A stretch of DNA of 63,505 nt, filler included, from Octopus bimaculoides (Eukaryota), in the NCBI RefSeq assembly GCF_001194135.2. It is 6 parts of 6 records of this genome, joined end to end, with 100 filler letters (N's around TTAATTAATTAA, not from the genome) between each part and the next. Parts side by side here need not be neighbours in the genome. Positions count along the whole stretch, not along the records: positions 5,434 to 34,358 come from NC_068983.1; positions 34,459 to 42,516 come from NW_026416654.1; positions 42,617 to 60,734 come from NC_068986.1; 3 more parts are not named here. One strand, 5' to 3'. Positions 10,170-46,031 of the stretch are shown here, piece after piece. Made by a program: the position numbers and the translations under genes. Each line of letters starts with the position of its first letter. Positions within the stretch are counted from its first letter, which is position 1. Under the pieces are notes generated by a model that was not told where the DNA came from, ran no database searches, and was given only the letters and a program-made list of their open reading frames with translations.

Positions 10170-10280
10170 AATCATTACGATCGTTTCAACCCATTGTGCA
10201 CCAGTGCCTCGCGGGTGAGATGCTGTACAAACACCTGTGGTGCATCGTAGGTGCGTGCGGATGCGTCTCATCAGGTGACT
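10170..10280 (-). ncRNA. Type I hammerhead ribozyme fold with long stem II (PLE-terminus type)
   Basis: agtcac CTGATGA gacgcat..66 nt..atgggtt GAAA C gatc GTA atgatt; palindromic stem III ACGATCGT; GUA site; stem I 5 bp with a mismatch at 1.1-2.1. Confidence 0.6.
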
Positions 10281-10491
10281 TGTCTTTTCATTTCCATTTC
10301 GCTTATTCCCATTAGAATATATTTTGGTAATGAACAGGCTTTAAACAGCATACTACAAGGCCTCCACCCGGCAATAAAATTATTACTTATACACACACAC
10401 ACACACACACACTCTCTCTCTCACATACATACATACATACATACATACATACATACATACATACATACATACATACATAAAGGTCTTCCAT

Positions 10492-11095
10492 AAAGGTTTT
10501 CCTTCTCACTAATCTTTGGAGAGACATTCACGTCCGTTGGGCAGCTGATCACTAAAAAGATGTACGACTTATGTGCCCTCTCGCATTCAACTGTATCTGG
10601 TCTGATATGCTTACACCTAATTTCTACTTTTTATTGGAATGTTCCAATACTATTCCTTATTTTTTAAGGTGTAGATACTTTCTGGTTCTGGTATGCTTTT
10701 GGTATGCCCTTTAGGAAAATTCTTCCTGCATATAGCATTGTTGACCGTCTTAGTGACAATGCCATGTCCTATGGGGAGGGAGTAGCTTGTGGACATTTGT
10801 GAGCAGCTACTTATGACCTTCCACGGTGCTATGGCAGAACCCCCACTTTCTTTCACAAAGTGGAAATTTAGAGGCATCCCTATCTTTTTTGTTGATCAAA
10901 TATTTTGTAGCTGTCTCCTGTTCTTGAACGGCTAAGGCATAGCATTCTAGAAGCTGCTATCCCTGTCAATGTTGCTGGGATTCCCCTGCATGTGGAACAG
11001 TACCTATACATAACTTGATGCTGTTATGTTGAATATTTCTCTTTCACGTATTTCCTCCTGTAGGTCAGCTCTTGTATCACACGGAACAGCCGGAC
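10492..11095 (-). mobile_element. Degenerate RLE-type (R4/Dong-like) LINE fragment: zinc knuckle plus endonuclease
   Basis: Across frameshifts: LECYALAVQEQETATKYLINK..., VISSCSQMSTSYSLPIGHGIVTKTVNNAIC, YWNIPIK, KHIRPD..ISCPTDVNVSPKISEKENLYG. Confidence 0.7.
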
Positions 11096-12047
11096 ACTCA
11101 GAATACTTGTTCAGACGTTTTTCGCCTTATCTCATGGTGTTATTCAACCCTCATTATTGAATATACACGATATGAGTTTAAAAAAACAACTTAAAAGCAT
11201 TTTGTGTTTCCTCCTCTAATTCATGAATCACTGTTCTGCATCGAATTATAAACTATATAAGTCATTACTGATATAGTTAGAAAACCACGAGATTCCATTT
11301 ATGTTTGAAACACCATAAACTATAATACTCGAGCATCATCTGTGTGTGTGCGTGTGTGCGTGCGTGCGTGTGTGTGAGTGTGTGTGTGTGTGTGTGTGTG
11401 CGTGCGTGCGTGCATGCGTGTGCGTGTGTGCGCGTATTAAAACTAGCACTTCAAAATTTCATAGTTCCGATCTTCGAACGAAATCTGAAGAAGGAAACAA
11501 AACTGTTGATATAAATAATTACATACCGAAAGCAAAAATGAAGCATTTGATTGGAAGCATGTATAAAGAGAAAATCAAATAAATGGATAAAGAGTATTTG
11601 ATTGGATTCATGTGTAAAATTAAAATCAACTAACAATCAAATGGATAATAAAAATAATTGATATGGATTTGTAATTCAATCATATTAATTGCAGGCAACT
11701 TTATCTATAGCCGTTCAGAAAGCATTGTTGACGAAGTGGAACAGTGAAAAAGAGTGTAACCGAAAGTATAGTGAGAAACGATATCGCTAGCTTTCAAAAC
11801 GTACTCAAAACTCTTCCTCCATTCACAATCACAAGACATATAAAAGAAATTCTACATCGCAACAGGAAAACAAAAGAAAAATGTGCAAAAATAAGCAAGT
11901 TGGAAATCAGAAATGAAAATGAAAACAATTTGTTATGAATTGCTCGTTGAATATTTTGCTATCGTGAATAACCTTTCGATTTATGCAAACAATTATAAGC
12001 AACATCATTTCTCCAATTCAAGCTGTTCAGGTTCTGTGATGCTATTT

Positions 12048-12245
12048 AAATGTACTTGCATAGCAAGCGACCTGATCTGAGATCGTGTATTGGAACGAAA
12101 ACAAATGCAGCGTGGAAGGTGTTTATAAGCCATTTATGAAACACAAAAACCGTTTGATTCATCTCAAAATTTAAATTTAATTTGCCAAAATATTTTCGTC
12201 GCTTTGAGACCGCGACCTGTTCACTGAGAAAATTCCGGAAAAATG
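12048..12245 (-). repeat. Dispersed repeat (likely PLE terminal repeat) carrying a variant hammerhead
   Basis: Same sequence recurs twice at 28153-28346; HHR fold at 12181-12231. Confidence 0.65.
12181..12231 (-). ncRNA. Minimal type I hammerhead fold with G3:C8 swapped core (GUGAACA)
   Basis: tttctca GTGAACA g gtcgc ggtctcaaa gcgac GAAA atatt T tggcaaa: perfect 5-bp stem II, palindromic stem III AATATT, stem I 6 of 7 pairs (one G:U). Confidence 0.6.
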
Positions 12246-12287
12246 TAATTGTCATTAAATGCGACAAAGGGCAATATGTGTGTAATG

Positions 12288-12318
<31 letters not shown>

Positions 12319-12544
12319 TTTNNNNNNNNNNNNNNNNNNNNNNNNNNNNNNNNNNNNNNNNNNNNNNNNNNNNNNNNNNNNNNNNNNNNNNNNNNNNNNN
12401 NNNNNNNNNNNNNNNNNNNNNNNNNNNNNNNNNNNNNNNNNNNNNNNNNNNNNNNNNNNNNNNNNNNNNNNNNNNNNNNNNNNNNNNNNNNNNNNNNNNN
12501 NNNNNNNNNNNNNNNNNNNNNNNNNNNNNNNNNNNNNNNNNNNN

Positions 12545-12587
<43 letters not shown>

Positions 12588-12650
12588 GTAGATATATACA
12601 TATATAAATATATATGTATGTGTATATATATGTGTGTGTGTGTGTCTATG

Positions 12651-12682
<32 letters not shown>

Positions 12683-13351
12683 TGTGTATACATACTTGTG
12701 TACACATACATACAGACCAATCACACTCACATGCAAATTAATATGCAGTCAACCAGTCCTTGTATCTCGGCCAAAAGTAATGAAGTACAAACAACCCCAT
12801 TCAATGCTGAAGGCTATAATTCAAATCGTAGGCTTCGGGAGTAGACTCTCTCTCTCTTTACCTCTCTCTCCCTCTTTACCTCTCTCTCTCTTCGTCTCTA
12901 TCTCCCTCTCCCTCTCTCTTTCAGTCTCTCCCTCCCTCCCTATCTCTCTCCACCTCCACCTCTCTCTTACCCCGCACAAACGCACCAATTTTTCCTTGAA
13001 TATATTCAGCGGAGTTCACTCTATTGTAATCATTCTGACCAAGATACCGATCCACTTCCCGCTCATATTTTCTCTCCAATCATCGATCTGTAGATGTTCC
13101 GGCTGGTTATCCACTGCATAAATCTCACCAGTCTGTGCAACGGAGCGGCTACAAAAGTCATGGGTACTGCTCCTCCTTCTGCTGACTAATTTAGGCGAAC
13201 GGGCGCGCGCGCGCGCACACACACTCACACACACACTCACACACACACACATATGCACTCACATATACACACGCACAAATTGATTTTCTAGTACTCTGTA
13301 TTCTCTCGGTTATATCATTCCCTTAGAAAGTTTACCATTATTATTGATGAA

Positions 13352-13520
13352 GAGAGAGCAGTGCATGCCATCAAAGTGACGCTGGGGTACAAATATACGA
13401 AGCCCAATATATCCATCATGACTTCCTGTCTGATAGGAGTACACCAGGCACATGCATCATAACCATATGTGCGCGACATGGTGATCTCATATCAAGATAA
13501 ACAGCGCATGACCTTGCTGG
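13352..13520 (-). mobile_element. 3' UTR terminus of the same R4/Dong-like LINE family as 518-1345
   Basis: gagagcagtgcatgccatcaaagtgac... closely matches 524-690; preceded by attattatt. Confidence 0.8.
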
Positions 13521-13682
13521 TGGAGTCCATCTTTTATACCAAGACAAAATATGTACATGGTAACACTTCCAATCAGTTAAGATCAAAAGCCATGAGAGAC
13601 ACTGCCTGGTACTGCATCAGGGTTTCTATTATTATGATTGGATGGTATGCCCTTCGAGCTTTATATACATATGCCAGACTTG

Positions 13683-15275
13683 TTGGGTGAGCTTTTGGTA
13701 GACGTCTTCCGCAACTAGCAACGGAATGGGAGAATACCCGGATCTGTGAGCCGAGGTGTGGTGACGCTACTGAGAAAGGATCCGAACAAGGGGGGCAATG
13801 TTGATAATTTTAGGCCGGTAACTCTTCTAAATACAGATTACAAAATTTTGGTCAAGGTGTTAGCAAAGATGTCCTTGACTGACTGGTGGGTGATGCGCAG
13901 ACTTGCGCTATCTCCCAGCAGAACTATACATGACAACCTCCACCTCACATAATACATCATAGAGAGGATTGGTAAAGAACCTAGCATGGGTGGGGCCCTG
14001 ATCCATTTAGATCAATCGAAAGCTTTTGATAGGGTGGGCCATTTGTACTTGGAAGCTGTCCTCAAGGCGGTCCCATTTTCAGAGGCTGGGTCGCTGCAAT
14101 GTACAGCAACATCTGTTCGGTGGTCGAAGTAAATGGCCGCCTCTCGGAATCGTTTATTATCGCACGTTCATTCCGTCAAGGATGCCCACTCTCACCCCTT
14201 CTCTATGTAATGGCACTCGAGTCATTACTGCGGAAGCTGGAGGTTTCGAGGGGCATCCCGCGTGAATTGGGAAGCGAAAGGTTCGTATCAGCGTATACGG
14301 ACGACGTCACCGTGATAGTGTCGGAAATCAAGATGGTCGGCACTGCCCTTATGGAATACGAAGCGGTGACGAGAGAAATGATTAACCAGGAGAAGTTAGT
14401 CGGCCTGCAGCTCGGTCGAAGGTGGTGAATGCGTACATTGCATCCGTCATATACTATCGCCTGACTGTCGTCCCTTGCCCAGCTTCATGGCTGAACGGGC
14501 TGACGCGTTTGCTCTTCCGCTTTCTGTGGAAGGGACAGGTACCGCTTGTCAGACGGTTCATTTACTGTCAGCACCCGTTGCGTGGAGGACTGGGCATGCC
14601 GTCGCTGATGATGCACAGAAATGCGCTGAGGCTGTGACATCTCCAGCGATACCTTAACGGCGAGCAGGTGTGGTCGCCGTTAGTTGAACGGGCTTTTCTG
14701 CAGCTCGTCTCCTTGACAGAGCTACGGTACGTAGACTGAGGCAGGGCGCTTGGCATCAAGAGTGTCTCCATGCACTCACATCCCTGGGCCAGTCGGGCAA
14801 TGTGGTCGGTGGAAGTTTCACCCTTGGAGCTCTATAGGGGATTGGTGGAGGGTAAGAGCGACGACTCTTGAGCGTCGAGGGATGAACAGGTTGGTCTCTT
14901 CCGGAGGACTTTCGGGCCTGGAACTATGGATAACTTCCAGAAATCCCTGGCCTGGCAGTGCTACCCCGAGAGGGGTCGCGTGCCGGTTCGAGATAAGCTC
15001 TACAGGTACGGGTGTGCAGTTAATCGAGCATGTCCGAGATGCACGCAGAGCGATGAAACCGTTCTGCATGCTCTCGTGCAGTGCTCGCACGTTGCTGACT
15101 TGTAGAGCTTTGTCAAACAGTTATTGTCACGTGTAGGATGGATCCAGCTATCGTCCGAATCCATTGTGAAGATCGCCCCGCCTCCTTCCTTTGGCCGAGA
15201 AAGGAGGGCAATTTTTCTCTGTCTGGTGGCTATGGCGAAAGAGGCTGTGTAGTGGATGCGATTGAAAGGGTTGAG
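13683..15275 (+). mobile_element. Tx1/L1-clade non-LTR retrotransposon fragment (RT plus C-terminal CCHC), internally deleted
   Basis: NFRPVTLLNTDYKIL, LDQSKAFDRV, RQGCPLSPLLY, SAYTDDVT, CPRCTQSDETVLHALVQC; GC-rich relative to flanks; runs into a gap. Confidence 0.88.
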
Positions 15276-15731
15276 NNNNNNNNNNNNNNNNNNNNNNNNN
15301 NNNNNNNNNNNNNNNNNNNNNNNNNNNNNNNNNNNNNNNNNNNNNNNNNNNNNNNNNNNNNNNNNNNNNNNNNNNNNNNNNNNNNNNNNNNNNNNNNNNN
15401 NNNNNNNNNNNNNNNNNNNNNNNNNNNNNNNNNNNNNNNNNNNNNNNNNNNNNNNNNNNNNNNNNNNNNNNNNNNNNNNNNNNNNNNNNNNNNNNNNNNN
15501 NNNNNNNNNNNNNNNNNNNNNNNNNNNNNNNNNNNNNNNNNNNNNNNNNNNNNNNNNNNNNNNNNNNNNNNNNNNNNNNNNNNNNNNNNNNNNNNNNNNN
15601 NNNNNNNNNNNNNNNNNNNNNNNNNNNNNNNNNNNNNNNNNNNNNNNNNNNNNNNNNNNNNNNNNNNNNNNNNNNNNNNNNNNNNNNNNNNNNNNNNNNN
15701 NNNNNNNNNNNNNNNNNNNNNNNNNNNNNNN

Positions 15732-15778
<47 letters not shown>

Positions 15779-15780
15779 AA

Positions 15781-15947
15781 GGCGGCTAGTTGTCAGAATC
15801 GTCAGCACGCCGGGCGAAATGCTTAGCAGTATTTCGTCTGCCGCTACGTTCTGAGTTCAAATTCCGCCGAGATCGACTTTGCCTTTCATCCTTTCGGGGT
15901 CAAAAAATTCAGTTCCAGTTGCTGCCATTGTGGCAAAATTTGAAACC
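15781..15947 (+). mobile_element. SINE family A between (ATT)n tracts
   Basis: A/B-box head, ctttcatcctttcggggtc core, tail gtggcaaaatttgaaacc(att)n. Confidence 0.85.
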
Positions 15948-15983
15948 ATTATTATTATCATTATTATTATTATTATTATTATA

Positions 15984-17338
15984 GTGTCTTTGCATAGCTT
16001 CTAACGTTGGAGATGTACTATGGTGTCAGCAGTTCACTACCAGTGCATTAAGGTAACACCCCTTATATTTCGAGTACCATCTGGAGTATTCGAGCTGTTC
16101 CAAGCAGTGCTGTTTTCTGCAAGTGCTCCACCCTCATTGCAGCCCCTATTTGTTCCAAGTACTTCTCAAGATTTTTACTCACTGTTTCCAGAGCTCCGAC
16201 AATTATTGGTACTACTATCACCTTTTTCATCGACCACAACTGCTTAAACTCCCAAGCTAACCTGTTATATCTATCTACTTTTCTTTCTTCCTTATCGCAT
16301 ACTTTGTTGTCAGCTGGTCATGCTATATCTATGATCCAGCATCGTTTGCTTTCTTTCTCAATTAACACTATGTCTGGTTTCCTATTCTCTATCTCATGGT
16401 CGCACTGAATCATAAAATCCCATAGGATCTTTGTATTATCATTTTCAATGATGCTTTCGGGTTTATGTTCGTACCACTTCTTTGCTCTGTCAGATCCATA
16501 CTTGTTGCAAGGTGTCCAATGGACAATCCTTGCTATAGTGTCATGACGTCACTTATATTCTTTCTGGGCTAGTGGCGTACATTGGCTGGTAATATGCCAT
16601 ACGGTTTCACCATTTTGTTCGCAAATTCTGCACTTATCACTTTCTGATGTGTTGTCAATTCTGTATTTGATGTAGTTGGTACTTAATGTTTGCAGCACAG
16701 ATTAGAGCCTCCGTTTCCGGTTTTAAATCACTTTTAGTAATCCATAGCCATCTTTTTACTCTCTCCATCTTATCTTCAACATCCCTATGAAATTGTCCAT
16801 GCATTCTTTTCTTTATCCACTTATTTTCAGTTTCCTTCGTTCTCAAGTGCTTGTACAGTGCTTTATCTTTGCAGTCTTCCATCCTAGGCAAGCTTGATCT
16901 TCTTACTTCTAATAATAGCGGTTTTGTGACATTTTTTTTTTTACATATCATGCTGTTGTTTTCTTCTGCTCTAATACTGTGTTTGCATCCAATTAGTCCT
17001 CTTCCTCCTCTTTTTCTTGGTACATACAGTTTGTCTGTGTCACTTTTGGGGTGGAGTATCCCATGTCTAGTCAGCAACTTGTCTTTCTGTCTAAGCTGTT
17101 TAGTTCGTCTACTGTCCATGCGATCACCCATTCTCCATGTCTAAGGAGTGAAACCGCTCAGGTGTTGATAGCTTCAATCTTATTCCGTTCATTTAATTTC
17201 GACTTAAGGATCAGTCTCAGTCTGCGTAAGTAATCCAACTTCGAGAGCATATCTAACCCCGCCTGTATTCTTCTTTTCCACCATGGGTCTTTTCTTTTGT
17301 CACTCCCATTATATTTCTTTTCCTTGACATCAACACCC

Positions 17339-17342
<4 letters not shown>
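15984..17342 (-). mobile_element. R4/Dong-like LINE derivative lacking the RT core, embedded in (TAA)n
   Basis: DPWWKRRIQ fused to YLRRLRLILKSKLN..IEAINT; LHPKSDTDKLYVPRKRGGRGL; HGQF; LKPETEALICAA; CRICEQNGETVWHI; RHDTIARIVHW; RKPDIVL; (att)n on both sides. Confidence 0.9.
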
Positions 17343-17398
<56 letters not shown>

Positions 17399-17400
17399 AA

Positions 17401-17611
17401 GCAGCGAGCTGGCAGAATCGTTAGCATGCTGGGCAATATGCTTAGCGGCATTTCGCCCGGCGTTACGTACTGAGATGAAATTCTGCCGAGGTCGACACTA
17501 TCTTTCTTCCTTTTGAGGTCGATAAAATAAAGTACCAGTTGAACACTGGGGTTGATGTAATTGATTTATCTCCTCACCACAAATTGCTGCCTTGTGGCAA
17601 GATTTGGAACC
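17401..17611 (+). mobile_element. SINE family A between (ATT)n tracts
   Basis: gcgagctggcagaatcgttagc head; tail gatttggaacc(att)n. Confidence 0.85.
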
Positions 17612-17841
17612 ATTATTATTATTATTGTTGTTATTGTTGGAATCTTTAGCACGCCGGGCAAAATGCTTAGCTACATTTTTTTGTGTAAGTAACACTTTAG
17701 TGTTTGAAGCTGTCGAACTTGTTACACTTTATAAAATTTATTTTCTAAATTATTCGATACGAGCGGGAGTCGTTCTGTTTTTTTTTTTGCATTTGTCACA
17801 TAATGCTTAATGAAACGTATTGAAGTTTTCTAAATTATCCA

Positions 17842-17903
17842 ACAGCGTTTCTGCTTTCTTACTGCGACAGTGTCTCTACTTTCTTACTGTCACAGCGTCT
17901 CTA
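17842..17903. repeat. 25-bp tandem repeat, about 2.5 copies
   Basis: acagcgtttctgctttcttactgcg / acagtgtctctactttcttactgtc / acagcgtctcta. Confidence 0.8.
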
Positions 17904-18024
17904 TTTAGTTGTCCTGTTTGTCTTTTGTATTTGAAAGTTCATTCTACTTTCTCAATGCATAGCTAATGTTTTAATATTCATAAATTTTGACGATTTGTCA
18001 TGCATCATTCTTTTTTTCTCTCTC

Positions 18025-18298
18025 TCTCTCTTTTTAAGGTATTGTAAACCAACAGTTCGCGAAGTGGAAAATGCCAACCCCATCTCAATATTAATAAACA
18101 ATTGGTTTGTTTCTTTCTTTTCGGCAAAGGTGGGATCTCCCCTCTTTATTAATGAGAAGACAAAATTGTGTCTGCATCCATATAAATTTTTCTTTCTTCA
18201 CCATAATGTTGCACTTGTTTTAAATGTTTAAACTGTTATAATTTTAGTCTGGCTAGCAGTCAGTAAATGCTTAGTTTTCCGATTTCTATATCAGAATA
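18025..18298 (+). repeat. About 275-bp segment duplicated at 21458-21736
   Basis: Near-identical direct copies (taaggtattgtaaaccaacag...tttctatatcagaata). Confidence 0.9.
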
Positions 18299-18654
18299 CG
18301 CATTTATAAGGGACTTTTTCATCACTATTGTAGCCCGAATTGTTCTTTTGGAGCAGGTTGCTGCCATACTGTAAAATAATGACACTTAAATTTGATTTGG
18401 TTTTTCCCCGCTAAGACCGACAAAAAAATCTTTCTAAATTTTCCAACAAATTCTGCGCTTACTTGCAGGAGTTGTTCTGTTTATTTTTTGTATTAGGAAG
18501 TTCATTCTGCTATCTTCATTGTCTCAGAATATTTCAATGTTCATAAACTTAGATGATTCACCCAGCATCGCACCAGTCATAAGGAATTTCGATGCTATAT
18601 CAGCGTACGGCCAACCGCACTATCTGTACTCTACACTGTGAAATTACCTGAAGT

Positions 18655-18686
18655 GGGTTAGGGTTAGAGTTAGAGTTAGGGTCAGG
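18655..18686 (+). repeat. Short telomere-like (TTAGGG/TTAGAG)n tract
   Basis: gggttagggttagagttagagttagggtcagg. Confidence 0.6.
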
Positions 18687-19580
18687 AACACTTGGAAATT
18701 ACAGACTGAAAACTTAGAAGGCCAAGATCTGTTAGTACCTCCTCATGTCTACACAAGAAATGTTCTTTCTGAATTTCTGCAGTAAATCATACCTGTGTAG
18801 TATTTTGGGAGTGATAAATATAATTTTCTTATTTTCCTCTTATTCTGGCTCTTTTATTTACTTCCTCTAATTATGAATTTCTATCGAGTAACTTTTCAAC
18901 AATAATTCCGTAGGCGATAGCTGCATGTTGCCAACACTACCGCCACATAAATAGCAGTTAATACTTTTGTTTGTCCCCTTGGGACAACATCAAGGGAGAT
19001 AACTTCAACAGCATTAGGAGTAATCTCCCTTCGCGTGACGTGATTGTGATACCAACATAAGGATTATTAGTATGAGTTTAATAGCAAAATCAGTAGAGCG
19101 TCCGGCAAGATACCCTACAATATTCAATTACTTCCCTTTATAGTGTGTATTCTAATCATAACCTATTCTGCATTTCATTTCTCCGTGAGTGAATAAAATA
19201 AAATAAATGCCAGTTAAGTACTGGGAAGAGGTGAGTGATTTAATCTACTTCTTCCTCCCTGCCTAACAGTATGTGGCTTTAGGCCATTGTCAGAAATAAT
19301 AATTATTATTTAATTTCTTTCTACTTCTCTTCCCCCTCCTCTGCATTATTATCATCAGCGGCAGCCCCACCCCTGCCGCCGCCGCCACCACCACCACCGC
19401 CATCACCATCAACACCACCATCATCATCATTATCATCATTGTGATCATCGGCATCATCGACGTTGCTCTCGTCGTCGTCATCATCGTCATCGTCATCATA
19501 ATGATGATGATGATCATCGTCATCATCATCGTCGTCTCCACCGTAATAAATGCATATCTATCTATCTATCTATCTATCAT

Positions 19581-19795
19581 ATTTCTTTATTGCCCACAAG
19601 GGGCTAAACATAGATGGGGCAAACAAGGACAGACAAAAGGATTAAGTCGATTACATCGACCCCAGTGCGTAACTGGTACTTAATTTATCGACCCCGGCAA
19701 AGTCGACCTCGGCGGAATTTGAACTCAGAACGTAACAGCAGACGAAATACTGCTAAGCATTTCGCCCGGCGTGCTAACGTTTCTGCCAGCTCGCC
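19581..19795 (-). mobile_element. SINE family A, subtype with ccccttgtgggcaataaagaaat tail, next to (TATC)n
   Basis: High identity to 54712-54941. Confidence 0.88.
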
Positions 19796-21457
19796 NNNNN
19801 NNNNNNNNNNNNNNNNNNNNNNNNNNNNNNNNNNNNNNNNNNNNNNNNNNNNNNNNNNNNNNNNNNNNNNNNNNNNNNNNNNNNNNNNNNNNNNNNNNNN
19901 NNNNNNNNNNNNNNNNNNNNNNNNNNNNNNNNNNNNNNNNNNNNNNNNNNNNNNNNNNNNNNNNNNNNNNNNNNNNNNNNNNNNNNNNNNNNNNNNNNNN
20001 NNNNNNNNNNNNNNNNNNNNNNNNNNNNNNNNNNNNNNNNNNNNNNNNNNNNNNNNNNNNNNNNNNNNNNNNNNNNNNNNNNNNNNNNNNNNNNNNNNNN
20101 NNNNNNNNNNNNNNNNNNNNNNNNNNNNNNNNNNNNNNNNNNNNNNNNNNNNNNNNNNNNNNNNNNNNNNNNNNNNNNNNNNNNNNNNNNNNNNNNNNNN
20201 NNNNNNNNNNNNNNNNNNNNNNNNNNNNNNNNNNNNNNNNNNNNNNNNNNNNNNNNNNNNNNNNNNNNNNNNNNNNNNNNNNNNNNNNNNNNNNNNNNNN
20301 NNNNNNNNNNNNNNNNNNNNNNNNNNNNNNNNNNNNNNNNNNNNNNNNNNNNNNNNNNNNNNNNNNNNNNNNNNNNNNNNNNNNNNNNNNNNNNNNNNNN
20401 NNNNNNNNNNNNNNNNNNNNNNNNNNNNNNNNNNNNNNNNNNNNNNNNNNNNNNNNNNNNNNNNNNNNNNNNNNNNNNNNNNNNNNNNNNNNNNNNNNNN
20501 NNNNNNNNNNNNNNNNNNNNNNNNNNNNNNNNNNNNNNNNNNNNNNNNNNNNNNNNNNNNNNNNNNNNNNNNNNNNNNNNNNNNNNNNNNNNNNNNNNNN
20601 NNNNNGCTTTTAGCTTCCTCCGATAAAAACATCTGGTGAGAGGGCCTTCATTGCCGTAAGGATTCATGCTTTGCAACCGTCCTCCCATCATCTTTGTTCT
20701 ATCTTTGATCTATCTATCTATCTATCTAACCTACTACTACTACTACTACTATTGCTGCCGCTGCTGCTACCGCTGCTGCTACCGCTGCTGCTACCGCTGC
20801 TGCTACCGCTGCTGCTACCGCTGCTGACGCCGCTGCCGCCGCTGCCGCCGCTGCCGCTGTCGCTGCCGCTGCTGCTGCAGAGCAGCAGCAATATCACCAT
20901 CAGCAGCAGCAGTAGCAGCAATAGCAGCAGTAGTGTTATTGCTGTTGTTGTTTGTTTGTTGGTTTGTTTAATCCGGGGCTGGGTAACCTAAGAGCGGCGG
21001 AAGAGTCTCGGCCATGTGTTACATTTGCCCATGAAGCGGCCAGTGAAAGCCTGTCTCAAGTAGAAGCCCGAAGGAAAGAAGGGTGGAAGGGAAAAGAAAA
21101 GAAAGCAAGGCAAATTTATCAAGACCTGCTTGAGTACTGTGGAGGAGAATCCAACGTGTACGGGTCTGGTTTGGGATTAGTCTTATGACAGATCTTGCTT
21201 GCATCCGAGTTGGGTGGACCTCCCTCCATTGCCCGATGTACAATGGAGAGTGGAAGGAACTGTTACTACGATTAAGACAAAATCTGTGTAATGTAAGAAC
21301 ATCCTTGATGTGCCGCTGGATTAAAAAATGGGAGAGACAAGAGAGTATATTCTTTATCTGCTCGCGATTACATAAGCACCTAAAACAATTAGCGAAAGTG
21401 TGGTGCAATCTATCAGGTCATATTCGTTTGCGTATGACGCCTCGTTCTTTTCTTCTT

Positions 21458-21736
21458 TCTCTCTCTTTTTAAGGTATTGTAAACCAACAGCAGTTCGCGA
21501 AGTGGAAAATGCCAACCCCATCTCAATATTAATAAACAATTCGTTTGTTTCTTTCTTTTCGGCAAAGGTGGGATCTCCCCTCTTTATTAATGAGAAGACA
21601 AAATTGTGTCTGCATCCATATAAAATTTTCTTTCTTCGCCATAATGTTGCACATGTTTTAAATGTTTAAACTGTTATAATTTTAGCCTGGCTAGCAGTCA
21701 GTAAATGCTTAGTTTTCCGATTTCTATATCAGAATA
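21458..21736 (+). repeat. Second copy of the 275-bp segment, followed by an HHR-like motif
   Basis: See 18025-18298. Confidence 0.9.
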
Positions 21737-21769
21737 AGCATTCTCGGTTTGGCTCAGAAGGTCTGGGCT

Positions 21770-21817
21770 ATATGTCACTGAAGAGACAAAATCAGGCCGA
21801 AACATTGTATCTAGTGA
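21770..21817 (+). ncRNA. Degenerate minimal hammerhead
   Basis: tca CTGAAGA gac aaaatcag gcc GAAA C att GTA tctagtga; intact core and GUA site, stem I 5' strand apparently lost. Confidence 0.45.
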
Positions 21818-22310
21818 TCCACTGTCCTTCTAAGCCAAGCGCTGTGCCTTTAACACACAAGTTTCTTCGAGAAGTTTCTCTGAGAGAAAATATTACAGTC
21901 AAGTCAAATACATTGGTATGTAATAATTTTATTGAATATGGCAACTGTGCGCCTCGTTTTCAATCCTCACAAGCCCCACCTTGTTGAGAAACACTGCTCG
22001 GAACTACATGCGCCCCTTTTTTCAAAGATGACAAATTGTGATTTTAGGTAAATTTCGCTGCTATTTCTAGCTAGTCGAAAGAACACTCAGAAACTCCTCC
22101 ATTGGCTCGTTGTTATTGTTTTATGGGGTTTTTTCCACCTAATTCCCAATTCTTCATCTACCTCATGTTTGGTTTGCCAGTTACTCAACCTCATACGCCC
22201 GCTATACACCCTTCTCGAGCCCCATGCACTCATAAGGACCGGTTTCCCGGTTTCCGTGGCGTGTATATATTTACCCCTTGGTCTGGACGACGGTCTGACA
22301 CAGGATTACA

Positions 22311-22450
22311 CAATTTTGCCAGCTGAGTGAACTGGAGCAGCGTGAAATGAAGTGTTTTACTCAAGAACACGTGTCACCAGGTTCAGGAATTGAAACCACA
22401 ATCTTAAGCTCATGAGTCCAATACGCTAACCACAATGCCACACGCCTCCA
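22311..22450 (-). mobile_element. tRNA-derived SINE family E, 5' part
   Basis: Homologous to 23724-24038 (tgtgtccttgagcaagacactt-type core, ccagttcactcagctggcaaaa). Confidence 0.7.
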
Positions 22451-24109: not shown

Positions 24110-24206
24110 TCGCGGTACACGTGTTTCAAGCTTTATACACAATCTGTCATTACATCAGTATATATTGTTGATATAAAGGATGGTTTAAAGCTATCTTCAG
24201 CCGCAA
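24110..24206 (-). ncRNA. Type I hammerhead ribozyme, canonical core
   Basis: ttgcgg CTGAAGA t agcttta..50 nt..taaagct t GAAA C acgt GTA ccgcga: 6-bp stem I, 7-bp stem II, perfect palindrome ACACGTGT as stem III, GUA site. Confidence 0.75.
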
Positions 24207-38185: not shown

Positions 38186-39606
38186 TAATCAAGGGTATGT
38201 GTTCTCGGAGTGTCTACGAAATTTTCGCAATAAACCTGCGTTTTTCATGTGAATTGATTTTTATGTAAGTGAAACTTCGTCTGGTGACTGCAATTAGAGT
38301 AGACCTCTGATCTACGCTCAAGTCGTATCATTGATTTAATACCTGGAACTTTTCAGTCAGAGGAAAACAACCTTGCATCTTCATGGCACTCCGTCGGTTA
38401 CGACGACGAGCGTTTCAGTTGATCCGATCAACGGAACATCGTCGTCGTCATCAACATCATCACCACCACCGCTACCACCACTACCACTATCATCATCATC
38501 ATTGTCATCATCATCATCGTCGTCGTCGCTGTCGTCATCATCTTCTACATCGTCATCACCCTCATCACTCTAAAACCACCATCACCATCGACACCACCTG
38601 GACCAAGTCTGACACCACCACTCACCCCCCTGAAATCACTATCAATGCACACGCAGCCAGCAGCACCACCAACAACAACAGCAACAACAATAACATCATC
38701 ATCATAATCAACTTCATTTCGTCCTGATCTTCATCACGTCACCACCACCATCACCTCAACAACCACCTCATCACTACCACCACCACTACCACTACCTCAA
38801 GTGAAATCACCATCAGTACCAACACCATCATCATCATGACCTCAACCACCANNNNNNNNNNNNNNNNNNNNNNNNNNNNNNNNNNNNNNNNNNNNNNNNN
38901 NNNNNNNNNNNNNNNNNNNNNNNNNNNNNNNNNNNNNNNNNNNNNNNNNNNNNNNNNNNNNNNNNNNNNNNNNNNNNNNNNNNNNNNNNNNNNNNNNNNN
39001 NNNNNNNNNNNNNNNNNNNNNNNNNNNNNNNNNNNNNNNNNNNNNNNNNNNNNNNNNNNNNNNNNNNNNNNNNNNNNNNNNNNNNNNNNNNNNNNNNNNN
39101 NNNNNNNNNNNNNNNNNNNNNNNNNNNNNNNNNNNNNNNNNNNNNNNNNNNNNNNNNNNNNNNNNNNNNNNNNNNNNNNNNNNNNNNNNNNNNNNNNNNN
39201 NNNNNNNNNNNNNNNNNNNNNNNNNNNNNNNNNNNNNNNNNNNNNNNNNNNNNNNNNNNNNNNNNNNNNNNNNNNNNNNNNNNNNNNNNNNNNNNNNNNN
39301 NNNNNNNNNNNNNNNNNNNNNNNNNNNNNNNNNNNNNNNNNNNNNNNNNNNNNNNNNNNNNNNNNNNNNNNNNNNNNNNNNNNNNNNNNNNNNNNNNNNN
39401 NNNNNNNNNNNNNNNNNNNNNNNNNNNNNNNNNNNNNNNNNNNNNNNNNNNNNNNNNNNNNNNNNNNNNNNNNNNNNNNNNNNNNNNNNNNNNNNNNNNN
39501 NNNNNNNNNNNNNNNNNNNNNNNNNNNNNNNNNNNNNNNNNNNNNNNNNNNNNNNNNNNNNNNNNNNNNNNNNNNNNNNNNNNNNNNNNNNNNNNNNTGT
39601 CATACC

Positions 39607-39646
39607 GGCCATGACGAAGGGAAATAGCCCTGAAACTCGAGTCGCC
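39607..39646 (+). ncRNA. Degenerate minimal hammerhead
   Basis: ggc c-a-TGACGA aggg aaatag ccct GAAA C tcga GTC gcc; palindromic stem III ACTCGAGT; one extra nucleotide in the core. Confidence 0.5.
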
Positions 39647-40466
39647 TTTATATATTTATATTTATATATTTGATCCTTTATATTGAACACTCAATATTTC
39701 ATCTACATTCAATACTTTATTTCATGGTGCCATCCATTTTTATTTTATTTTATTTTATATTATATATTGTATATTATATTATATATTGTATATTCCATAT
39801 TCTATACCCCACATTAGTTCTGCAGGAATATAAATAAAACATAAAAAACAGACAGTGTTGGAACTCTTTTAAACAAAATAATATATTCCTCTATACACAA
39901 TCATACAAAAAAACCACCTTTTTGTATTTATTTTTACTCGTGTGTGTGTGTGTGTGTGTGCGTGTATGTATATATAACGAATGAAGAAAGGGACATAGTA
40001 GTAGTAGTAGTAGCAGAAGAAGAAGAAAGAGCGGGGTAGATTAGTGTAGGAGGTAGTGCAGGGAGTGGTTGCAGAAGTAGGGGTAAATCTTGGGGTGGAC
40101 TGAAAGGTCAGTCTGTTTCGTGTGGTCAGTGAAATGGAACGACGGTCATCGAAGTTAGACATTCTACACTGAATGACTGAATGCAACACACCTCCATTTT
40201 GTTTTCATTACTTTCTTCCTCTTCCTCCGCCTCTTCTACTTCTTCTTCTTCTTCTTCTGTATTCTCCTTCACTCCACACACACCCCTTACACCGACCGCC
40301 CTCTCTACCCATCTCAACCGTCACCAGATCTTCCCCTCCCTTCAAACCCGCTGCGCTTCACTCTTCGTTTAATTATAATGTAATTGATTCATAACAACAA
40401 GCCCCCCCCCCAACACCAACAACAACAACGTTTATTTCTTTTGTTTTTCTTCTTTATTCTTATATC

Positions 40467-40847
40467 CTTGTTTCAGTCATTTGACTTCAGCCATGCTGGA
40501 GCATCGAAAATAAGGGGTTTTACTCGAAGAAATCTCCCCCACCTACCCAGGACATATTCTTCGTAAGACTAGAACTTATTCTATCGCTTTCTTTTGGCAA
40601 GCCGATAGATTATGTGGACGTAAACGCACCAACATCGGTTCTCAAGCGATGGTGAGGTAACAAACACACAGACACACAAATAAATATATACGATAGGCTT
40701 CTCTCAGTTTCCGTCTACCAAATTCACTCACCAAGCATTGGTCGGCCCGAGGCTATAGTAGAAGACACTTGCCCAAGGTGCCATGCAGTGGGACTGAACC
40801 CAGAACCATGTAGTCGGGAAGCAAGCTTCTTACCACACACTGCGCCT
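40467..40847 (-). mobile_element. SINE family B, full length
   Basis: Family homology over the whole length. Confidence 0.85.
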
Positions 40848-41572
40848 GTATGACCAAAGAAACGGCCCATCCTGGTTTGGCTGCTATTTCTACCAGGTCT
40901 ATCTACCACCCAGTGGTTCACTGCTTCCTTTGGTTACGGACCGCTTAACAGTCGGGTTCGGGTGCTGTGAAAGATAAGATATATGTTTATTTCAAGGGTC
41001 ACGTAGCTGTAATTGACCCCTATCGGACAGACAGGCCTTGTTCTTGTGGCAAAGATGGCTGGAAGTTGATATACAGGTTGTTGCTGTGGTTTCGGTGGTA
41101 GTGTTAGTGGTGGTATTGGTAAGTTTAGCGATGGTAGTTGTGTTGGTAGTAGCAGTGGTGGTGATGGTGTTGGCGGTGGTGGAGGTGATGGTGATAGTGG
41201 TGGTGGTGGCGGTGGTAGTTGTGTTACAGTTTTTGTTATTCTTGCCGCTCTTGTTGTTCTTGGTAGTAGTAGTGGTGGTGGTGGTGGTACTCGCATTAGT
41301 GGTGACGGTTGTACAAATGGCTGGAGCAATTAAGGTGGGTGGGTGGGTGGATTGAAAGAAGAAGGTAAGGGTTTCGGTTCAGATTTCGGCAAGGTTATAT
41401 ATGTCAGCGTTTAGGGGGGTCCCTTAGTGCAACAAATAGGAGTCGAGAAAATGGGAGAAGAGAGGGACTGAGGAGAAGATGGTGGCAAGAAAGAAAGAAT
41501 GAAGGGTGAATACAACAATGAGTTTTTTTTATCTGTCATCAATATGATGGTGATGACGATGATGATGATAAT

Positions 41573-41735
41573 CCTGTCTACTAAAAGCACAAGGCCTGGA
41601 ATTTGAGGGGAGGGGGTTAGTCGATGACATTGACTACATTTCTTGACTGGGATCCTAATGTCCAGAGTTAAAATTCCGCTGTGAGCGACTTCGCCTTTCA
41701 TCATTTCGGGGTCGATAAATAAAGTACCAGTCAAG
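41573..41735. mobile_element. Family A SINE with an internal inversion
   Basis: Minus-strand tail to 41650, plus-strand core 41651-41726, flanked by inverted cttgactgg / ccagtcaag. Confidence 0.7.
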
Positions 41736-42419
41736 GGGATCTTTTCCGGTTGGCTGTGAATTTTCGAAAATTCAACATATATTGAAAATCTTAAAATTTG
41801 GTGTATTAATGTAGTTTTCCAAGCTGAATTCTCAAATGATATTTCAATTTTTTTCTTCCGCCACCACCAACACCACAAGCAACATGACCACCACTGCCGA
41901 TACTCCCACACCAGTCTAACCTCAAGAATACTACCACCACCACAACAGCTATAACACCAACACCAACAACAACAGCAACGACGATAAGACCAAAATTACA
42001 ACATCCATAACCGCCATCACATTTCTTCCCTACACCAACAACAACAACAGACACTTTCCGTTCTCTCCTCTCCAACACGACCATCACCCTTGAACAGTAT
42101 TTACCCCCAAACACCCTAATCCCGAACAACAATTCTTGTCCTGTAATTCCCAGCAGAATATAACATTTCAGTGAAACGAAGAATTCCAGCTAAAACATAT
42201 TTTCCTCTTTCTCTACCAATATACGTGAATATGTATATGCGTATATACATATGTATGTGTGTGTATGTATGTATGTGTGTGTGTGTATGTGTGTGTGTGG
42301 TTGTGGTTGTGTTTGTGTGTGTGTGTGCATAGAAATATATGTATTTCTTTATATATATACATATATAATTATTTTTTAATATATATCTATGTTTCTATAT
42401 AAAACCAGGAGTAGCGTGC

Positions 42420-42453
<34 letters not shown>

Positions 42454-42716
42454 ATGGGTGTGTGTATATATCTATATCCTTCTATCTATCTACCTATATA
42501 TATATATATATATATANNNNNNNNNNNNNNNNNNNNNNNNNNNNNNNNNNNNNNNNNNNNTTAATTAATTAANNNNNNNNNNNNNNNNNNNNNNNNNNNN
42601 NNNNNNNNNNNNNNNNTCCGGTCAGTCATTGTTATGATCGGCCATTATTATGATTGACCGTTGACTGAACACTATTCAATTTTTTTCTCTCCGTGTTTTT
42701 CTCCTTGTCTCCGTAT

Positions 42717-42753
42717 TCTTTCTGTTGAAGAGCGTAGCTCGAAACGTCAAAGA
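42717..42753 (+). ncRNA. Minimal hammerhead fold with A6U core change, inside a PLE-terminus-like repeat (about 42617-42850)
   Basis: tcttt CTGTTGA a gagc gta gctc GAAA C GTC aaaga: 5-bp stem I, 4-bp stem II, loopless palindromic stem III ACGT. Confidence 0.55.
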
Positions 42754-42918
42754 CTTTCCGTATTCCCGAGCGTCATACTAATATATACTTTTGTTATTTA
42801 CACCACCTGTCCTCGTCTGTTGTTATTATTTGTATATTCTCCTATATATATATAATAAGGTTTTTAACTTTTAAATTTTCATATTCAAAAGAGACAGAGA
42901 CTTCAAATCCTCTGGAAA

Positions 42919-42964
<46 letters not shown>

Positions 42965-43064
42965 GTGTATGTATGTGTGTGTACACATATACACGTATAC
43001 AGATATGCATGCATATATCTCCATGTGCATGTGTGTATGTATATGTATGTATGTATGTGTGTGT

Positions 43065-43275
43065 GTGTGTGCGTGTTTGTCAATCTCCCCTACAGTATTG
43101 CTTTGTTTTCGTCCTCTTAACTCAGCGGTTCGGCGAAAGAATCCGATAGAATACGTACCAGATAAAAGGCATAAATACTGGGATCGATTTGTTCGACTAG
43201 CAACCAACCTTCAGGCAGTGCTCCAGCATGGCCGCAGGCCAATAGTTAAAGCATGTAAATGATAAAGAACAAAAA
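43065..43275 (+). mobile_element. SINE family B, 3' half
   Basis: cttaactcagcggttcggcgaaagaatccgatagaat...gtgctccagcatggccgcag. Confidence 0.75.
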
Positions 43276-43731
43276 TATAAAAACAATATGGCGTATTTGA
43301 AGAAAAGTCTCGTATCTTGTTTCAAGCCTATCATTGTAATAACGTTGGCGAGTAGACAACAACTCTTAGTGTTCCAGATCACATGACTTCCGGAGGTTGG
43401 CGTCAGATTTTCTAAAGATATAACCGGCATTCTGACTAAAGCTGGGAGTTTGGGGTCAAGTTAATTTTCTTATCCTTTGAAAACCCTTGAATTAATTAAG
43501 CTAATCATCGGTTTTACGAAACATTAAAGTATTTGGAAATATATCTTCCTTTGTCACGGTTAGTGGTCGTGGTATTTTTTTCTACCGCCGTCGGGTTTTG
43601 ATTCACTTTAGTTGTTTTCAGGGAAGACACTATATACACCTAGTTATACACACAATTATATACAGTCGTAGTATATAACAGTACACTCATTGTGCGAGGA
43701 TCTAGCGATGTATTTTTCACCGGATGCTAGG

Positions 43732-43810
<79 letters not shown>

Positions 43811-43900
43811 ACGTAAAGTGTAACATTATATCTGATTTTTCTTTCAGTTTAAGTTCTTCTTGAGAGGGTTCAAGTCGGTTGCTGAATGTATGTATGTATG

Positions 43901-43934
<34 letters not shown>

Positions 43935-43958
43935 TGTATGTATGTATGCATGTATGCA

Positions 43959-43995
<37 letters not shown>

Positions 43996-44319
43996 GACTG
44001 TATGTGTGTGCGTGTGTGTATGTATGTATGTATGTATGTATGTGTGTGTGTGTGTATTTGTATGTTTTGTTTTATGTATGTATTCTCAGCGGGGTTTTGA
44101 TTCACTTTTTTCTAGCAATTAAATAGATCCTTATTCAATTCATAACCCCAAGAGAAATGAGTTTTGTGGTTACGGTTTCTTCTATAACTGCAGCTAGAAG
44201 GAAATTGTTTACCTGTTGAGCCGTTGTTTTCATTCTGTTTCTCGGTTGTGTTGTTGTTGATGTTGTGTCCAGCCATGTTGTTTGTAGTAACTCTTTATGT
44301 ACACACGCATACACAAATA

Positions 44320-44602
44320 CGTACGTATGTGTATACGATCATTTGGTAATTTGTGTTCGCGTTTGACCTCTCAACACTTGATAACCGGCGTTGGTTTGTT
44401 TACGTTGCAGTAACTTGGTGGTTCGCCAAAAAAGCCGGTAGCATAGGGACCAGACTTGAAAAAATTAGTACTGGGGTTCATTTGCTTCAACTAAACAACC
44501 CTTCAAAACCGTGTCCAATGATAAATGATAAAGATTGAAAAATTATATATCAAGATGGTGCCCCAGCGTGGCCACAGTCTAATGACCAAAACAAGTAAAA
44601 GA
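44320..44602 (+). mobile_element. SINE family B, 3' half, degenerate
   Basis: gataaccggcgttggtttgtttacg...gccacagtctaatgaccaaaacaagtaaaag. Confidence 0.65.
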
Positions 44603-44634
44603 TATAATATAAATAACACACACACACACACACA

Positions 44635-44949
44635 TATAAAGGATCGTGGGTAAGGCCAAAACAAGGCGAAGTAAATGCAAGGTAAATCACAAAAAATATA
44701 TGAATTAATGTAAACTTACCTTGTATTCAATATTTCGGGGTTATGACCCCATTTTCAAGAAAATAAACGAATGTTGCCCATGTGCGTTCACACACACGCA
44801 CATCGGCAACATTCGTCGATTTGTAGAAAATGGGTCATGACCCCGAAATATTGAATACAAGGTAAGTTTATTAATTCATATATTTGTTTTCTTGTGATTT
44901 ACCTTGCATTTACTTTGCATTGTTTTCGCCTTACCCACAATCTTTTATA
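44635..44949. repeat. 315-bp foldback palindrome; each arm carries an outward-pointing HHR-like motif
   Basis: Arms of about 150 bp are reverse complements around a short (CA) loop at 44787-44796; TATA at both ends. Confidence 0.9.
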
Positions 44950-44984
44950 CAATATATTCTGCACAATACTTCATAGTAATTATT

Positions 44985-45015
<31 letters not shown>

Positions 45016-45945
45016 NNNNNNNNNNNNNNNNNNNNNNNNNNNNNNNNNNNNNNNNNNNNNNNNNNNNNNNNNNNNNNNNNNNNNNNNNNNNNNNNNNNNN
45101 NNNNNNNNNNNNNNNNNNNNNNNNNNNNNNNNNNNNNNNNNNNNNNNNNNNNNNNNNNNNNNNNNNNNNNNNNNNNNNNNNNNNNNNNNNNNNNNNNNNN
45201 NNNNNNNNNNNNNNNNNNNNNNNNNNNNNNNNNNNNNNNNNNNNNNNNNNNNNNNNNNNNNNNNNNNNNNNNNNNNNNNNNNNNNNNNNNNNNNNNNNNN
45301 NNNNNNNNNNNNNNNNNNNNNNNNNNNNNNNNNNNNNNNNNNNNNNNNNNNNNNNNNNNNNNNNNNNNNNNNNNNNNNNNNNNNNNNNNNNNNNNNNNNN
45401 NNNNNNNNNNNNNNNNNNNNNNNNNNNNNNNNNNNNNNNNNNNNNNNNNNNNNNNNNNNNNNNNNNNNNNNNNNNNNNNNNNNNNNNNNNNNNNNNNNNN
45501 NNNNNNNNNNNNNNNNNNNNNNNNNNNNNNNNNNNNNNNNNNNNNNNNNNNNNNNNNNNNNNNNNNNNNNNNNNNNNNNNNNNNNNNNNNNNNNNNNNNN
45601 NNNNNNNNNNNNNNNNNNNNNNNNNTATACACACACACACACACACACACATATGCACACACACACAATATATATGTATATAAGAAAAACGGAAGTTGAA
45701 AATGCACTGAGAATACACCAAAACAATAAGAAACGAACGAAAAAACGATTCCTTCAAAGGGGTTTGAAGCATCCAATTCACTGGTAGGGCAGTTGAATAC
45801 CACAGATATAGGGGTATAAACACAAATACAAATAATAAATTAGATAGAGAAATACAATTGACAATCTAACAATTTATTTACATTATAATATAATATACTA
45901 TAAAATATAATATAAAATAAACTAACAACCAATTAAAAAACAAAT

Positions 45946-46031
45946 AAAGCCAACAATTTGTTTCGACTTCTATACATTATTTGATTTATAAATAATTCGT
46001 ATCTACGTTATACAAGTCTCTTCAGAGCCTT
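45946..46031 (-). ncRNA. Type I hammerhead ribozyme, canonical core
   Basis: aaggct CTGAAGA gacttgtata..tatagaagtc GAAA C aaatt GTT ggcttt: 6-bp stem I (2 G:U), stem II 9 of 10 pairs, GUU site. Confidence 0.7.

What the first reader, a model, noticed from the sequence alone, without database searches (positions are those of the whole stretch)
10170..46031. About eight hammerhead folds from unrelated repeat families within one intron
Type I HHR folds occur at 10170(-), 12181(-), 21770(+), 24110(-), 39607(+), 42717(+), 44721(-)/44816(+) and 45946(-). Stems and flanks are unrelated, yet all show a CUGANGA-like core, often one extra nucleotide before stem II, GAAA, and mostly a very short palindromic stem III (ACGATCGT, AATATT, ACACGTGT, ACTCGAGT, ACGT). 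That architecture is established for HHRs in Penelope-like element termini, which are reported to cleave as dimers through the palindrome. No PLE RT is recognisable here, so these appear to be non-autonomous remnants or retrozyme-like units. One per 8 kb or less would imply a very large, diverse ribozyme population in this genome (inference).
Basis: partly seen in the sequence, partly recalled or inferred. Interest (0 to 1): 0.75.

Follow-up and report, generated by a model that had tools for sequence, protein, structure and literature searches.

The report
Penelope retroelement ends with variant hammerheads
The nine sites are hammerhead-shaped RNA motifs in the ends of eight unrelated repeat families on three different scaffolds, three of them tied directly to Penelope-type jumping genes; the layout is a known one, but several very abundant families carry fixed changes in the catalytic core that are predicted to weaken cutting, which is untested.

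Summary
The folds are real; the setting is not as described. The sites lie in three packed stretches from three scaffolds, not one intron. They belong to eight unrelated dispersed repeat families. Six copies fit a hammerhead descriptor written after seeing them (0.05 per shuffle); three are decayed. Three families run upstream into Penelope-like (PLE) coding sequence elsewhere in the genome; five are unlinked. So these are PLE end-pieces with minimal type I hammerheads, as published. Density elsewhere is about 1 per 80 kb, not 1 per 8 kb. Of interest are family-wide core variants: U6 (7,238 copies against 56 with A6), G3-C8 (619), an extra A after C3 (811) and the known U3-A8 (87). In the U6 family only positions 7 and 17 vary freely, and 17 avoids G, which suggests a kept fold. 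Short copies of one family start just below a TATA box and keep the cut site intact, as expected from uncut templates. No cutting was seen in RNA reads. The scan noted G3-C8 and U6 before in other genomes.

The parts
10170..10280 (-). Family D hammerhead fold: canonical core, about 60-nt insert in loop II, palindromic stem III; decayed copy (first stem I pair mismatched, G.U at 10.1-11.1)
   Evidence: family majority has all stems; 12 of 25 rows keep all 11 core letters; no ORF link found
12181..12230 (-). Family H hammerhead fold with swapped core pair G3-C8, extra G, 5-bp stem II, AAUAUU palindrome
   Evidence: 619 pattern matches, 91 of the first 100 listed are G3-C8, none C3-G8; no ORF link found
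21774..21814 (+). Family F hammerhead remnant; old family (71-94% identity), majority canonical, this copy broken in stems I and II
24110..24206 (-). Family G hammerhead fold: canonical core, U.U at the base of stem II, long loop II hairpin, ACACGUGU palindrome; 3' end of a Hydra-clade-like PLE
   Evidence: 657 matches; endonuclease end with CxC..C linker, CxxC, E, N, CxH lies 1.1-1.5 kb upstream on the same strand in L520, L522, L523, L528
39607..39646 (+). Family C hammerhead fold with one extra A after C3, A-U at 10.1-11.1, ACUCGAGU palindrome; young PLE end; predicted cut after 39643
   Evidence: 811 matches, extra A in 100 of 100 listed; lies 200-300 nt 3' of a GIY-YIG ORF end in L310 and, as relatives, L235, L236, L249
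42717..42753 (+). Family A hammerhead fold with U at core position 6, extra A, 4-bp stem II, ACGU palindrome; young, very abundant; predicted cut after 42748
   Evidence: (3,228 exact 33-mers); ORF not seen, two ends flank a 5,035-base assembly gap in L396
44726..44761 (-). Family E hammerhead fold with U3-A8, extra U, 5-bp stem II; left arm of an inverted pair; followed by a splice-donor-like motif
   Evidence: 87 matches: 77 U3-A8, 6 U3.G8, 2 C3-G8, 2 other; RT plus GIY-YIG sequence ends about 70 nt upstream in L120 and L435
44821..44855 (+). Family E, right arm of the inverted pair; core decayed (U4 lost)
45946..46031 (-). Family B hammerhead fold: canonical core, 6-bp stem I, long stem II; the only site that passes a strict descriptor
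   Evidence: no ORF link found
28205..28344 (.).
34359..34458 (.). Pack joint between the C3 stretch and the C121797 stretch; not genomic
42517..42616 (.). Pack joint between the C121797 stretch and the C6 stretch; not genomic

Best explanation
Each site is the ribozyme-bearing end (pseudo-LTR) of a dispersed repeat, shown for three families and inferred for five to be a Penelope-like retroelement, and the single copies here are likely inert passengers copied from uncut RNA. Shown: eight unrelated families; PLE coding sequence upstream of families C, E and G at other loci; ends in TA runs, optional tails and inverted pairs; fixed core variants in A, C, E, H. Inferred: the hammerhead works in the parent element, where two ends in tandem can pair through the short palindrome, probably with help from the element's protein; a lone copy cannot form stem III and does not cut. 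Inferred: the many short copies arise when reverse transcription starts inside the 5' end of the uncut element RNA and runs to its start, which is why family C copies begin 4-26 nt upstream of the core, below a TATA box. Inferred: the variant cores are still under selection for the hammerhead fold and give slow or protein-dependent cutting.
For: PLE links: searches (C; fragment 96.6% identical to the L242 ORF with RT-type YLDD, CxxxxCxxC linker and GIY-YIG; E; Pfam GIY-YIG E 2.5e-4, RVT_1 E 2.3e-3, both under the curated cut-offs), 108 with 103 (G; Hydra-clade motifs). 112 GIY-YIG matches in G000. Architecture matches Cervera 2014. With positions 3, 6, 7, 8, 17 left free, all 5 multi-copy families found in 1.58 Mb of held loci have a Watson-Crick 3-8 pair (C-G twice, U-A twice, G-C once; 3 of the 5 are window families), 0 hits in 2 shuffles. 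Family A, first 100 of 7,490 matches, hand tally: positions 3, 4, 5, 6, 8, 16.1 are 94-98% fixed, position 7 is U73/G13/C8/A6, position 17 is C45/U39/A15/G1. Family C, 30 copies picked by a motif 3' of the cut: 11 hidden by gaps; of 19 visible 5' ends, 14 lie 4-26 nt upstream of C3, 1 in the core, 2 run through the TATA box, 2 start 3' of the cut, 0 at the cut; TATA at -58, initiator-like A at -26. Frangieh 2024: an anole PLE hammerhead needs the protein, uncut RNA is the main template, RT starts internally, C3G/G8C partly rescues.
Against: No cleavage shown: RNA reads from two runs of one study cover A (2,192 and 2,444 reads) and C (321 and 204) on both strands with no pile of ends at the cut; these fragmented libraries and lone copies are a weak test. 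Five of eight families have no ORF link. The family A signal rests on few independent master changes (about three at position 7, two at 17), and the pattern fixed the other letters. U6 and an insertion near C3 are expected to hurt catalysis (Perreault 2011: A6C under 0.1 per min, insertions near C3 impair cleavage), so those families may not cut at all. Two of 19 family C copies start in the AT run 6 nt after the cut and could come from cut RNA. The TATA/initiator start site is predicted from sequence only. The 5' clustering could also be RT stalling.
Confidence: 0.8

Rival explanations
1. The variant-core motifs (U6, extra A after C3) are catalytically dead relics that spread only because the parent element does not need the cut; their constancy reflects recent copying from few masters.
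For: Families A and C are young (many copies 99-100% identical). Catalytic mutants did not reduce insertion in vitro. A6C and insertions near C3 impair cleavage. No ends at the cut in RNA reads. The 56 A6 copies (0.8%) fit back-mutation.
Against: Across A subfamilies 72-82% identical in sequence, change falls on positions 7, 17 and loop II and avoids G17. The insertion after C3 recurs with U in sister elements L235, L242, L163. Family E shows C3-G8, U3.G8 and U3-A8 in one lineage.
Confidence: 0.35
2. Some families (B, D, F, H, perhaps A) are non-autonomous retrozyme- or SINE-like units that replicate through their own cut, circular RNA.
For: No ORF link for five families. H copies are short with a fairly fixed 5' end. 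A 122-nt direct duplication of family A exists (L024), with 2 and 6 RNA reads across such a joint.
Against: No head-to-tail arrays were seen in the loci examined; copies are single or inverted, end in TA runs with optional tails, and A is 5'-truncated at many lengths and spans a 5-kb gap. The joint reads are explained by genomic duplications.
Confidence: 0.15
3. The folds are chance matches of a relaxed motif in AT-rich repeats.
For: Only 1 of 9 passes a strict descriptor; Rfam finds none; my descriptor was fitted after the fact.
Against: 6 against 0.05 in shuffles; family majorities complete the fold even where the window copy is broken; 3-8 pairing holds with the positions left free; position 70-1,500 nt 3' of PLE ORFs as published.
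Confidence: 0.02

Closest known systems
Minimal type I hammerheads (min-HHR) in pLTRs of metazoan Penelope-like elements, Cervera and de la Pena 2014, PMC4209133 (read parts 1-2 of 4 of the text, part 1 of 3 of supplement file 2, and a term search of the supplements; file 1 not searchable)
   Same: Short palindromic stem III, extra letter between 9 and 10.1, G10.1-C11.1, short stem I, mostly single copies, inverted pairs 100-700 bp apart, thousands per genome, U3-A8 variant.
   Different: Family-wide G3-C8, U6 and an insertion after C3 are not in the parts I read; three families carry long inserts in stem-loop II.
Hydra-clade PLEs, Craig et al. 2021, PMC8557442 (read passages, section 11 and supplement rows)
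   Same: Family G parent has the CxC..C linker and the CxxC/E/N/CxH endonuclease end, TA targeting and a hammerhead; the paper lists one octopus family (Hydra-1_Obim) with its hammerhead.
   Different: The listed octopus hammerhead is another sequence than any of the eight here; family G has a 3' region of over 1 kb and a long loop II. No tree was built, so clade placement rests on motifs.
PAc (Poseidon of the green anole), Frangieh et al. 2024, PMC11167929 (read parts 1-2 of 4)
   Same: AT-rich targets, two alternative 3' ends (optional tail), intact hammerhead in genomic copies, no reads ending at the cut; G3-C8 made as a laboratory double mutant is partly active.
   Different: There G3-C8 is engineered; here it is the natural family state. 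A 5' wall of short copies at a predicted start site is not described in the parts I read.
Natural hammerhead core variants, Perreault et al. 2011, PMC3088659 (read abstract and passages of sections 7-9, 11, 13, 17)
   Same: U3-A8, a change at position 6 (A6C), U10.1-U11.1 and insertions near C3 are all reported.
   Different: Those were rare single cases in phage and environmental DNA; here variants are fixed in hundreds to thousands of copies, and position 6 is U.
Small hammerhead variants that cleave as dimers, Lunse et al. 2017 (not held; seen only as cited in PMC6765202, passages)
   Same: PLE-associated motifs with reduced stem III.
   Different: Could not be compared; it may already list some of these variants.

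Membership tests
Minimal type I hammerhead of PLEs | Three-way junction with U4 G5 A9, GAAA, U16.1 and H17 | tested here: met
   6 of 9 window copies; majority form of B, D, E, F, G, H and of A, C
Minimal type I hammerhead of PLEs | Watson-Crick 3-8 pair | tested here: met
   C-G in A, B, C (with an insertion), D, F, G; U-A in E; G-C in H
Minimal type I hammerhead of PLEs | A at position 6 and an uninterrupted CUGANGA | tested here: not met
   Not met in family A (7,238 non-A against 56 A) and family C (extra A in 100 of 100 listed); met in the other six
Minimal type I hammerhead of PLEs | Short palindromic stem III | tested here: met
   Perfect palindromes in A, C, D, E, G, H; near-palindromes with one central letter in B, F
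Minimal type I hammerhead of PLEs | Self-cleavage as a dimer or with protein | not testable with these tools
   Needs a bench assay; RNA reads showed no ends at the cut; cofolding paired the palindromes only for family C
EN+ Penelope-like element | RT followed by C-terminal GIY-YIG upstream of the ribozyme-bearing end | tested here: met
   Families C, E, G at other loci; for G only the region after the RT core and the endonuclease were seen
EN+ Penelope-like element | Same ORF link for families A, B, D, F, H | tested here: inconclusive
   None found within 1.5-9 kb of the loci held; assembly gaps sit on many young copies
EN+ Penelope-like element | TA-run targets, optional tail, inverted 5' copy | tested here: met
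   TA ends A, C, E, G, H; two 3' ends in C, G, H; inverted pairs in D, E, G, H
EN+ Penelope-like element | Full-length copy with two pLTRs around an intact ORF | tested here: inconclusive
   None resolved; candidate with a 5,035-base gap in L396
Metazoan non-LTR retrozyme | Head-to-tail non-coding units of a few hundred bases, each with a hammerhead (feature recalled; abstract listing) | tested here: not met
   Single or inverted copies in the loci examined; only isolated two-copy duplications (L024, L063, L467/468)
Metazoan non-LTR retrozyme | Abundant circular RNA | not testable with these tools
   No RNase R data; joints match genomic duplications

The most novel reading that the evidence does not exclude
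PLE hammerheads in this genome are under selection as a protein-dependent fold that tolerates cores thought to be crippling: a U6 core kept through several subfamilies and over 7,000 copies, a recurrent one-letter insertion after C3, and a natural G3-C8 swap. They would be a class of protein-assisted ribozymes (or protein-binding folds) that standard searches miss, and the short copies would be a direct genomic record of internal reverse-transcription starts on uncut RNA, ending at the element's own start site.
Probability: 0.3. Interest if true: 0.6.

Novelty: new variant of a known kind. Interest (0 to 1): 0.36.

Why it matters
Why PLEs keep a hammerhead is open: it cuts poorly alone and was dispensable for insertion in vitro. 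This genome offers matched natural series for a direct test: A6 against U6 in one family, C3-G8, U3.G8 and U3-A8 in another, with and without an insertion after C3 in sister elements. If the variants cut only with protein, the functional core is wider than the consensus and genome counts are too low. If they are dead yet spread to thousands of copies, the cut is dispensable in vivo. The bare observation, many PLE hammerheads in an invertebrate genome, is already known.

Tried and rejected
Rfam: no hammerhead family at gathering score, among the best 150 of 200 rows at E up to 10 or on site B alone. One intron: rejected. Host gene: 22 window ORFs against Pfam gave only transposon domains. ORF links for A, B, D, F, H: tblastn with 9 PLE ORF pieces and upstream walks found none; nearby PLE fragments in L280/L411, L290, L336/L476 and L231 were not counted because they lie 3' of the motif, across other sequence or on the other strand; two H copies 6 kb apart enclose no ORF. 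One walk used wrong coordinates and gave nothing. Run search: no RNA holder listed among indexed runs; two raw RNA runs added by species label were laid and showed no piles of ends. MFE folding does not give the hammerhead junction for the short motifs, as expected for a 1-3 bp stem III. Core-versus-flank identity was not used as evidence because flanks include element ends. Literature: searches for natural G3-C8 or A6U (supplement search) found only laboratory G3-C8 mutants and no natural A6U; Lunse 2017 and Nelson and Uhlenbeck 2008 were not held and one supplement file of PMC4209133 could not be searched, so absence from print is not established.
Full report
1. Setting. The window is a pack of six stretches. 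The sites at 10170, 12181, 21774 and 24110 map to G000:C3, the site at 39607 to C121797 (locus L061, identical for 1,003 bases), and 42717 to 46031 to C6. 'One intron' is therefore wrong. G000 has 2.34 Gb in 145,327 contigs; that it is an octopus is my recall and the reading of earlier scan notes, not tested here. No host-gene domain was found in 22 window ORFs, so whether a stretch is intronic is open.

2. The folds. All nine motifs are at the stated places. A strict CUGANGA descriptor finds one, 45946-46031 (0 in 12 shuffles); with one free mismatch, 7 against a mean of 1.9. A descriptor for minimal PLE-type hammerheads that allows one named deviation finds 6 against 0.05 +/- 0.22 in 100 shuffles; it was fitted after seeing the sites. 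Rfam finds none. The eight families are unrelated in sequence. Each is a dispersed repeat. For B, D, E, F, G and H the family majority has a complete core and stems, also where the window copy is broken; 7 of 20 (F) to 17 of 20 (G) rows keep all 11 core letters. That is the picture of a working fold in a parent and decay after insertion.

3. Link to PLEs. G000 has 112 GIY-YIG matches among 150 scored candidates, several in frame with RT. Family C relatives lie 200-300 nt 3' of such an ORF end in L235, L236, L249, and the exact window motif follows a fragment 96.6% identical to the L242 ORF in L310, across a gap. Family E runs 1.1 kb upstream into RT and GIY-YIG sequence in L120 and L435 (weak Pfam hits under the cut-offs). 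Family G runs upstream into an endonuclease end with the motifs that Craig et al. give for the Hydra clade, on the same strand in L520, L522, L523 and L528. Family A extends 5' through a long C-rich region, and two of its ends flank a 5,035-base gap in L396, but no ORF was seen. B, D, F and H are unlinked; they share TA-run ends, inverted pairs or optional tails with the linked ones. No PLE protein matches the window.

4. Numbers. Pattern matches in G000: A 7,490, C 811, G 657, H 619, E 87; each with 0 in the reversed control; B, D, F were not counted. In 638 kb of de-duplicated flanks of search loci the descriptor finds 8 motifs (1 per 80 kb; shuffles 1, 0, 1, 0, 0), and decayed copies of the eight families occur at 1 per 28 kb. 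The window has 6 in 57.6 kb, about eightfold more, partly because the descriptor was fitted to it.

5. Core variants. E: of all 87, 77 are U3-A8, 6 U3.G8, 2 C3-G8, 2 other; U3-A8 is published. H: 91 of the first 100 are G3-C8, none C3-G8; I found this pair in print only as a laboratory mutant. C: an extra A follows C3 in 100 of 100 listed; sister elements have a canonical core (L236) or an extra U (L235, L242, L163). A: 7,238 copies lack A6, 56 have it. With positions 3-8, 16.1 and 17 free, the first 100 matches (hand tally) give C3 97, U4 98, G5 94, U6 97, G8 96, U16.1 96, but position 7 U73/G13/C8/A6 and position 17 C45/U39/A15/G1. Change between subfamilies thus falls on the two positions that the hammerhead consensus leaves free, and avoids G17, which impairs minimal hammerheads. 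The number of independent changes is small, so this is suggestive. With 3, 6, 7, 8, 17 free, all five multi-copy families found in 1.58 Mb of held loci pair 3 with 8; two shuffles give no hit.

6. How the copies arise. For family C I took the first 30 copies of a motif 3' of the cut. Eleven 5' ends are hidden by gaps. Of 19 visible, 14 lie 4-26 nt upstream of C3, 1 in the core, 2 run on through a TATA box, 2 start in the AT run 3' of the cut, and none starts at the cut. The TATA box is at -58 and an initiator-like A at -26. Copies have two alternative 3' ends about 60 nt apart. This fits Frangieh et al. 2024: reverse transcription starts inside the RNA at two sites, uncut RNA is the main template, and the hammerhead cuts only with the protein. 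I infer that short copies come from internal starts in the 5' end of the uncut element RNA. The start site is predicted, not measured.

7. RNA. Two raw RNA runs of one study (about 6% of each read) cover family A with 2,192 and 2,444 reads and family C with 321 and 204, in both orientations, with no pile of ends at the cut. This shows transcription of family members, probably as read-through, and is a weak test of cutting.

8. Comparison and verdict. The architecture, the dimer model, the extra letter and U3-A8 are published for PLEs, PLEs are known to be abundant in an octopus (passages), and one octopus PLE hammerhead of another family is listed. Earlier notes of this scan report G3-C8 and U6 families in other genomes, including U6 in a likely shark element; I saw these after reaching the same variants here, and they are unchecked. 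I did not find natural G3-C8 or U6 in print, but Lunse et al. 2017 could not be read. Verdict: new variants of a known kind; interest 0.36.

Noticed in passing
window 44762 upstream arm and 44856-44870 (+); family E loci L116-L140: A splice-donor-like motif follows the predicted cut by about 9 nt in family E; it may be the start of a retained PLE intron.
   Followed up: no
L467, L461, L219 (family H): A branch-point-like motif, pyrimidine tract and AG, then ATG, lie about 21 nt upstream of the core, after a 380-nt CATA-rich region; many H copies begin near this point. Possibly the 3' end of a PLE intron.
   Followed up: partly
L247:5681-5717, L081, L142; L148, L159: Two further hammerhead families with U3-A8, both just 3' of GIY-YIG sequence in at least one locus.
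   Followed up: partly
L239, L243, L405, L407, L413, L483, L085, L315, L419, L435: Further unrelated canonical minimal hammerheads, including an inverted pair in L243 and long-loop-II forms; the genome holds many more families than the eight here.
   Followed up: no
window 1003-1341, 16655-17140, 49499-50930, 62441-62845: Fragments of non-LTR retrotransposons with a restriction-like endonuclease motif (R4/Dong-like by recall; zf-RVT hit at 49843-50595).
   Followed up: partly
window 14033-14428: Reverse transcriptase fragment of a non-PLE LINE (RVT_1, E 4.7e-9).
   Followed up: partly
window 2027-2767 and 30694-31149: Mariner/Tc1 transposase fragments (Transposase_1; HTH_Tnp_Tc3_2).
   Followed up: partly
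L522, L521, L524, L529 (family G parent): The family G parent carries a long Asn/Ser-rich stretch between the RT region and the endonuclease linker, unusual for the short Hydra-clade ORFs described.
   Followed up: no
L311: A family C copy abuts a family A copy head to head, a sign that these elements insert into or beside one another.
   Followed up: no
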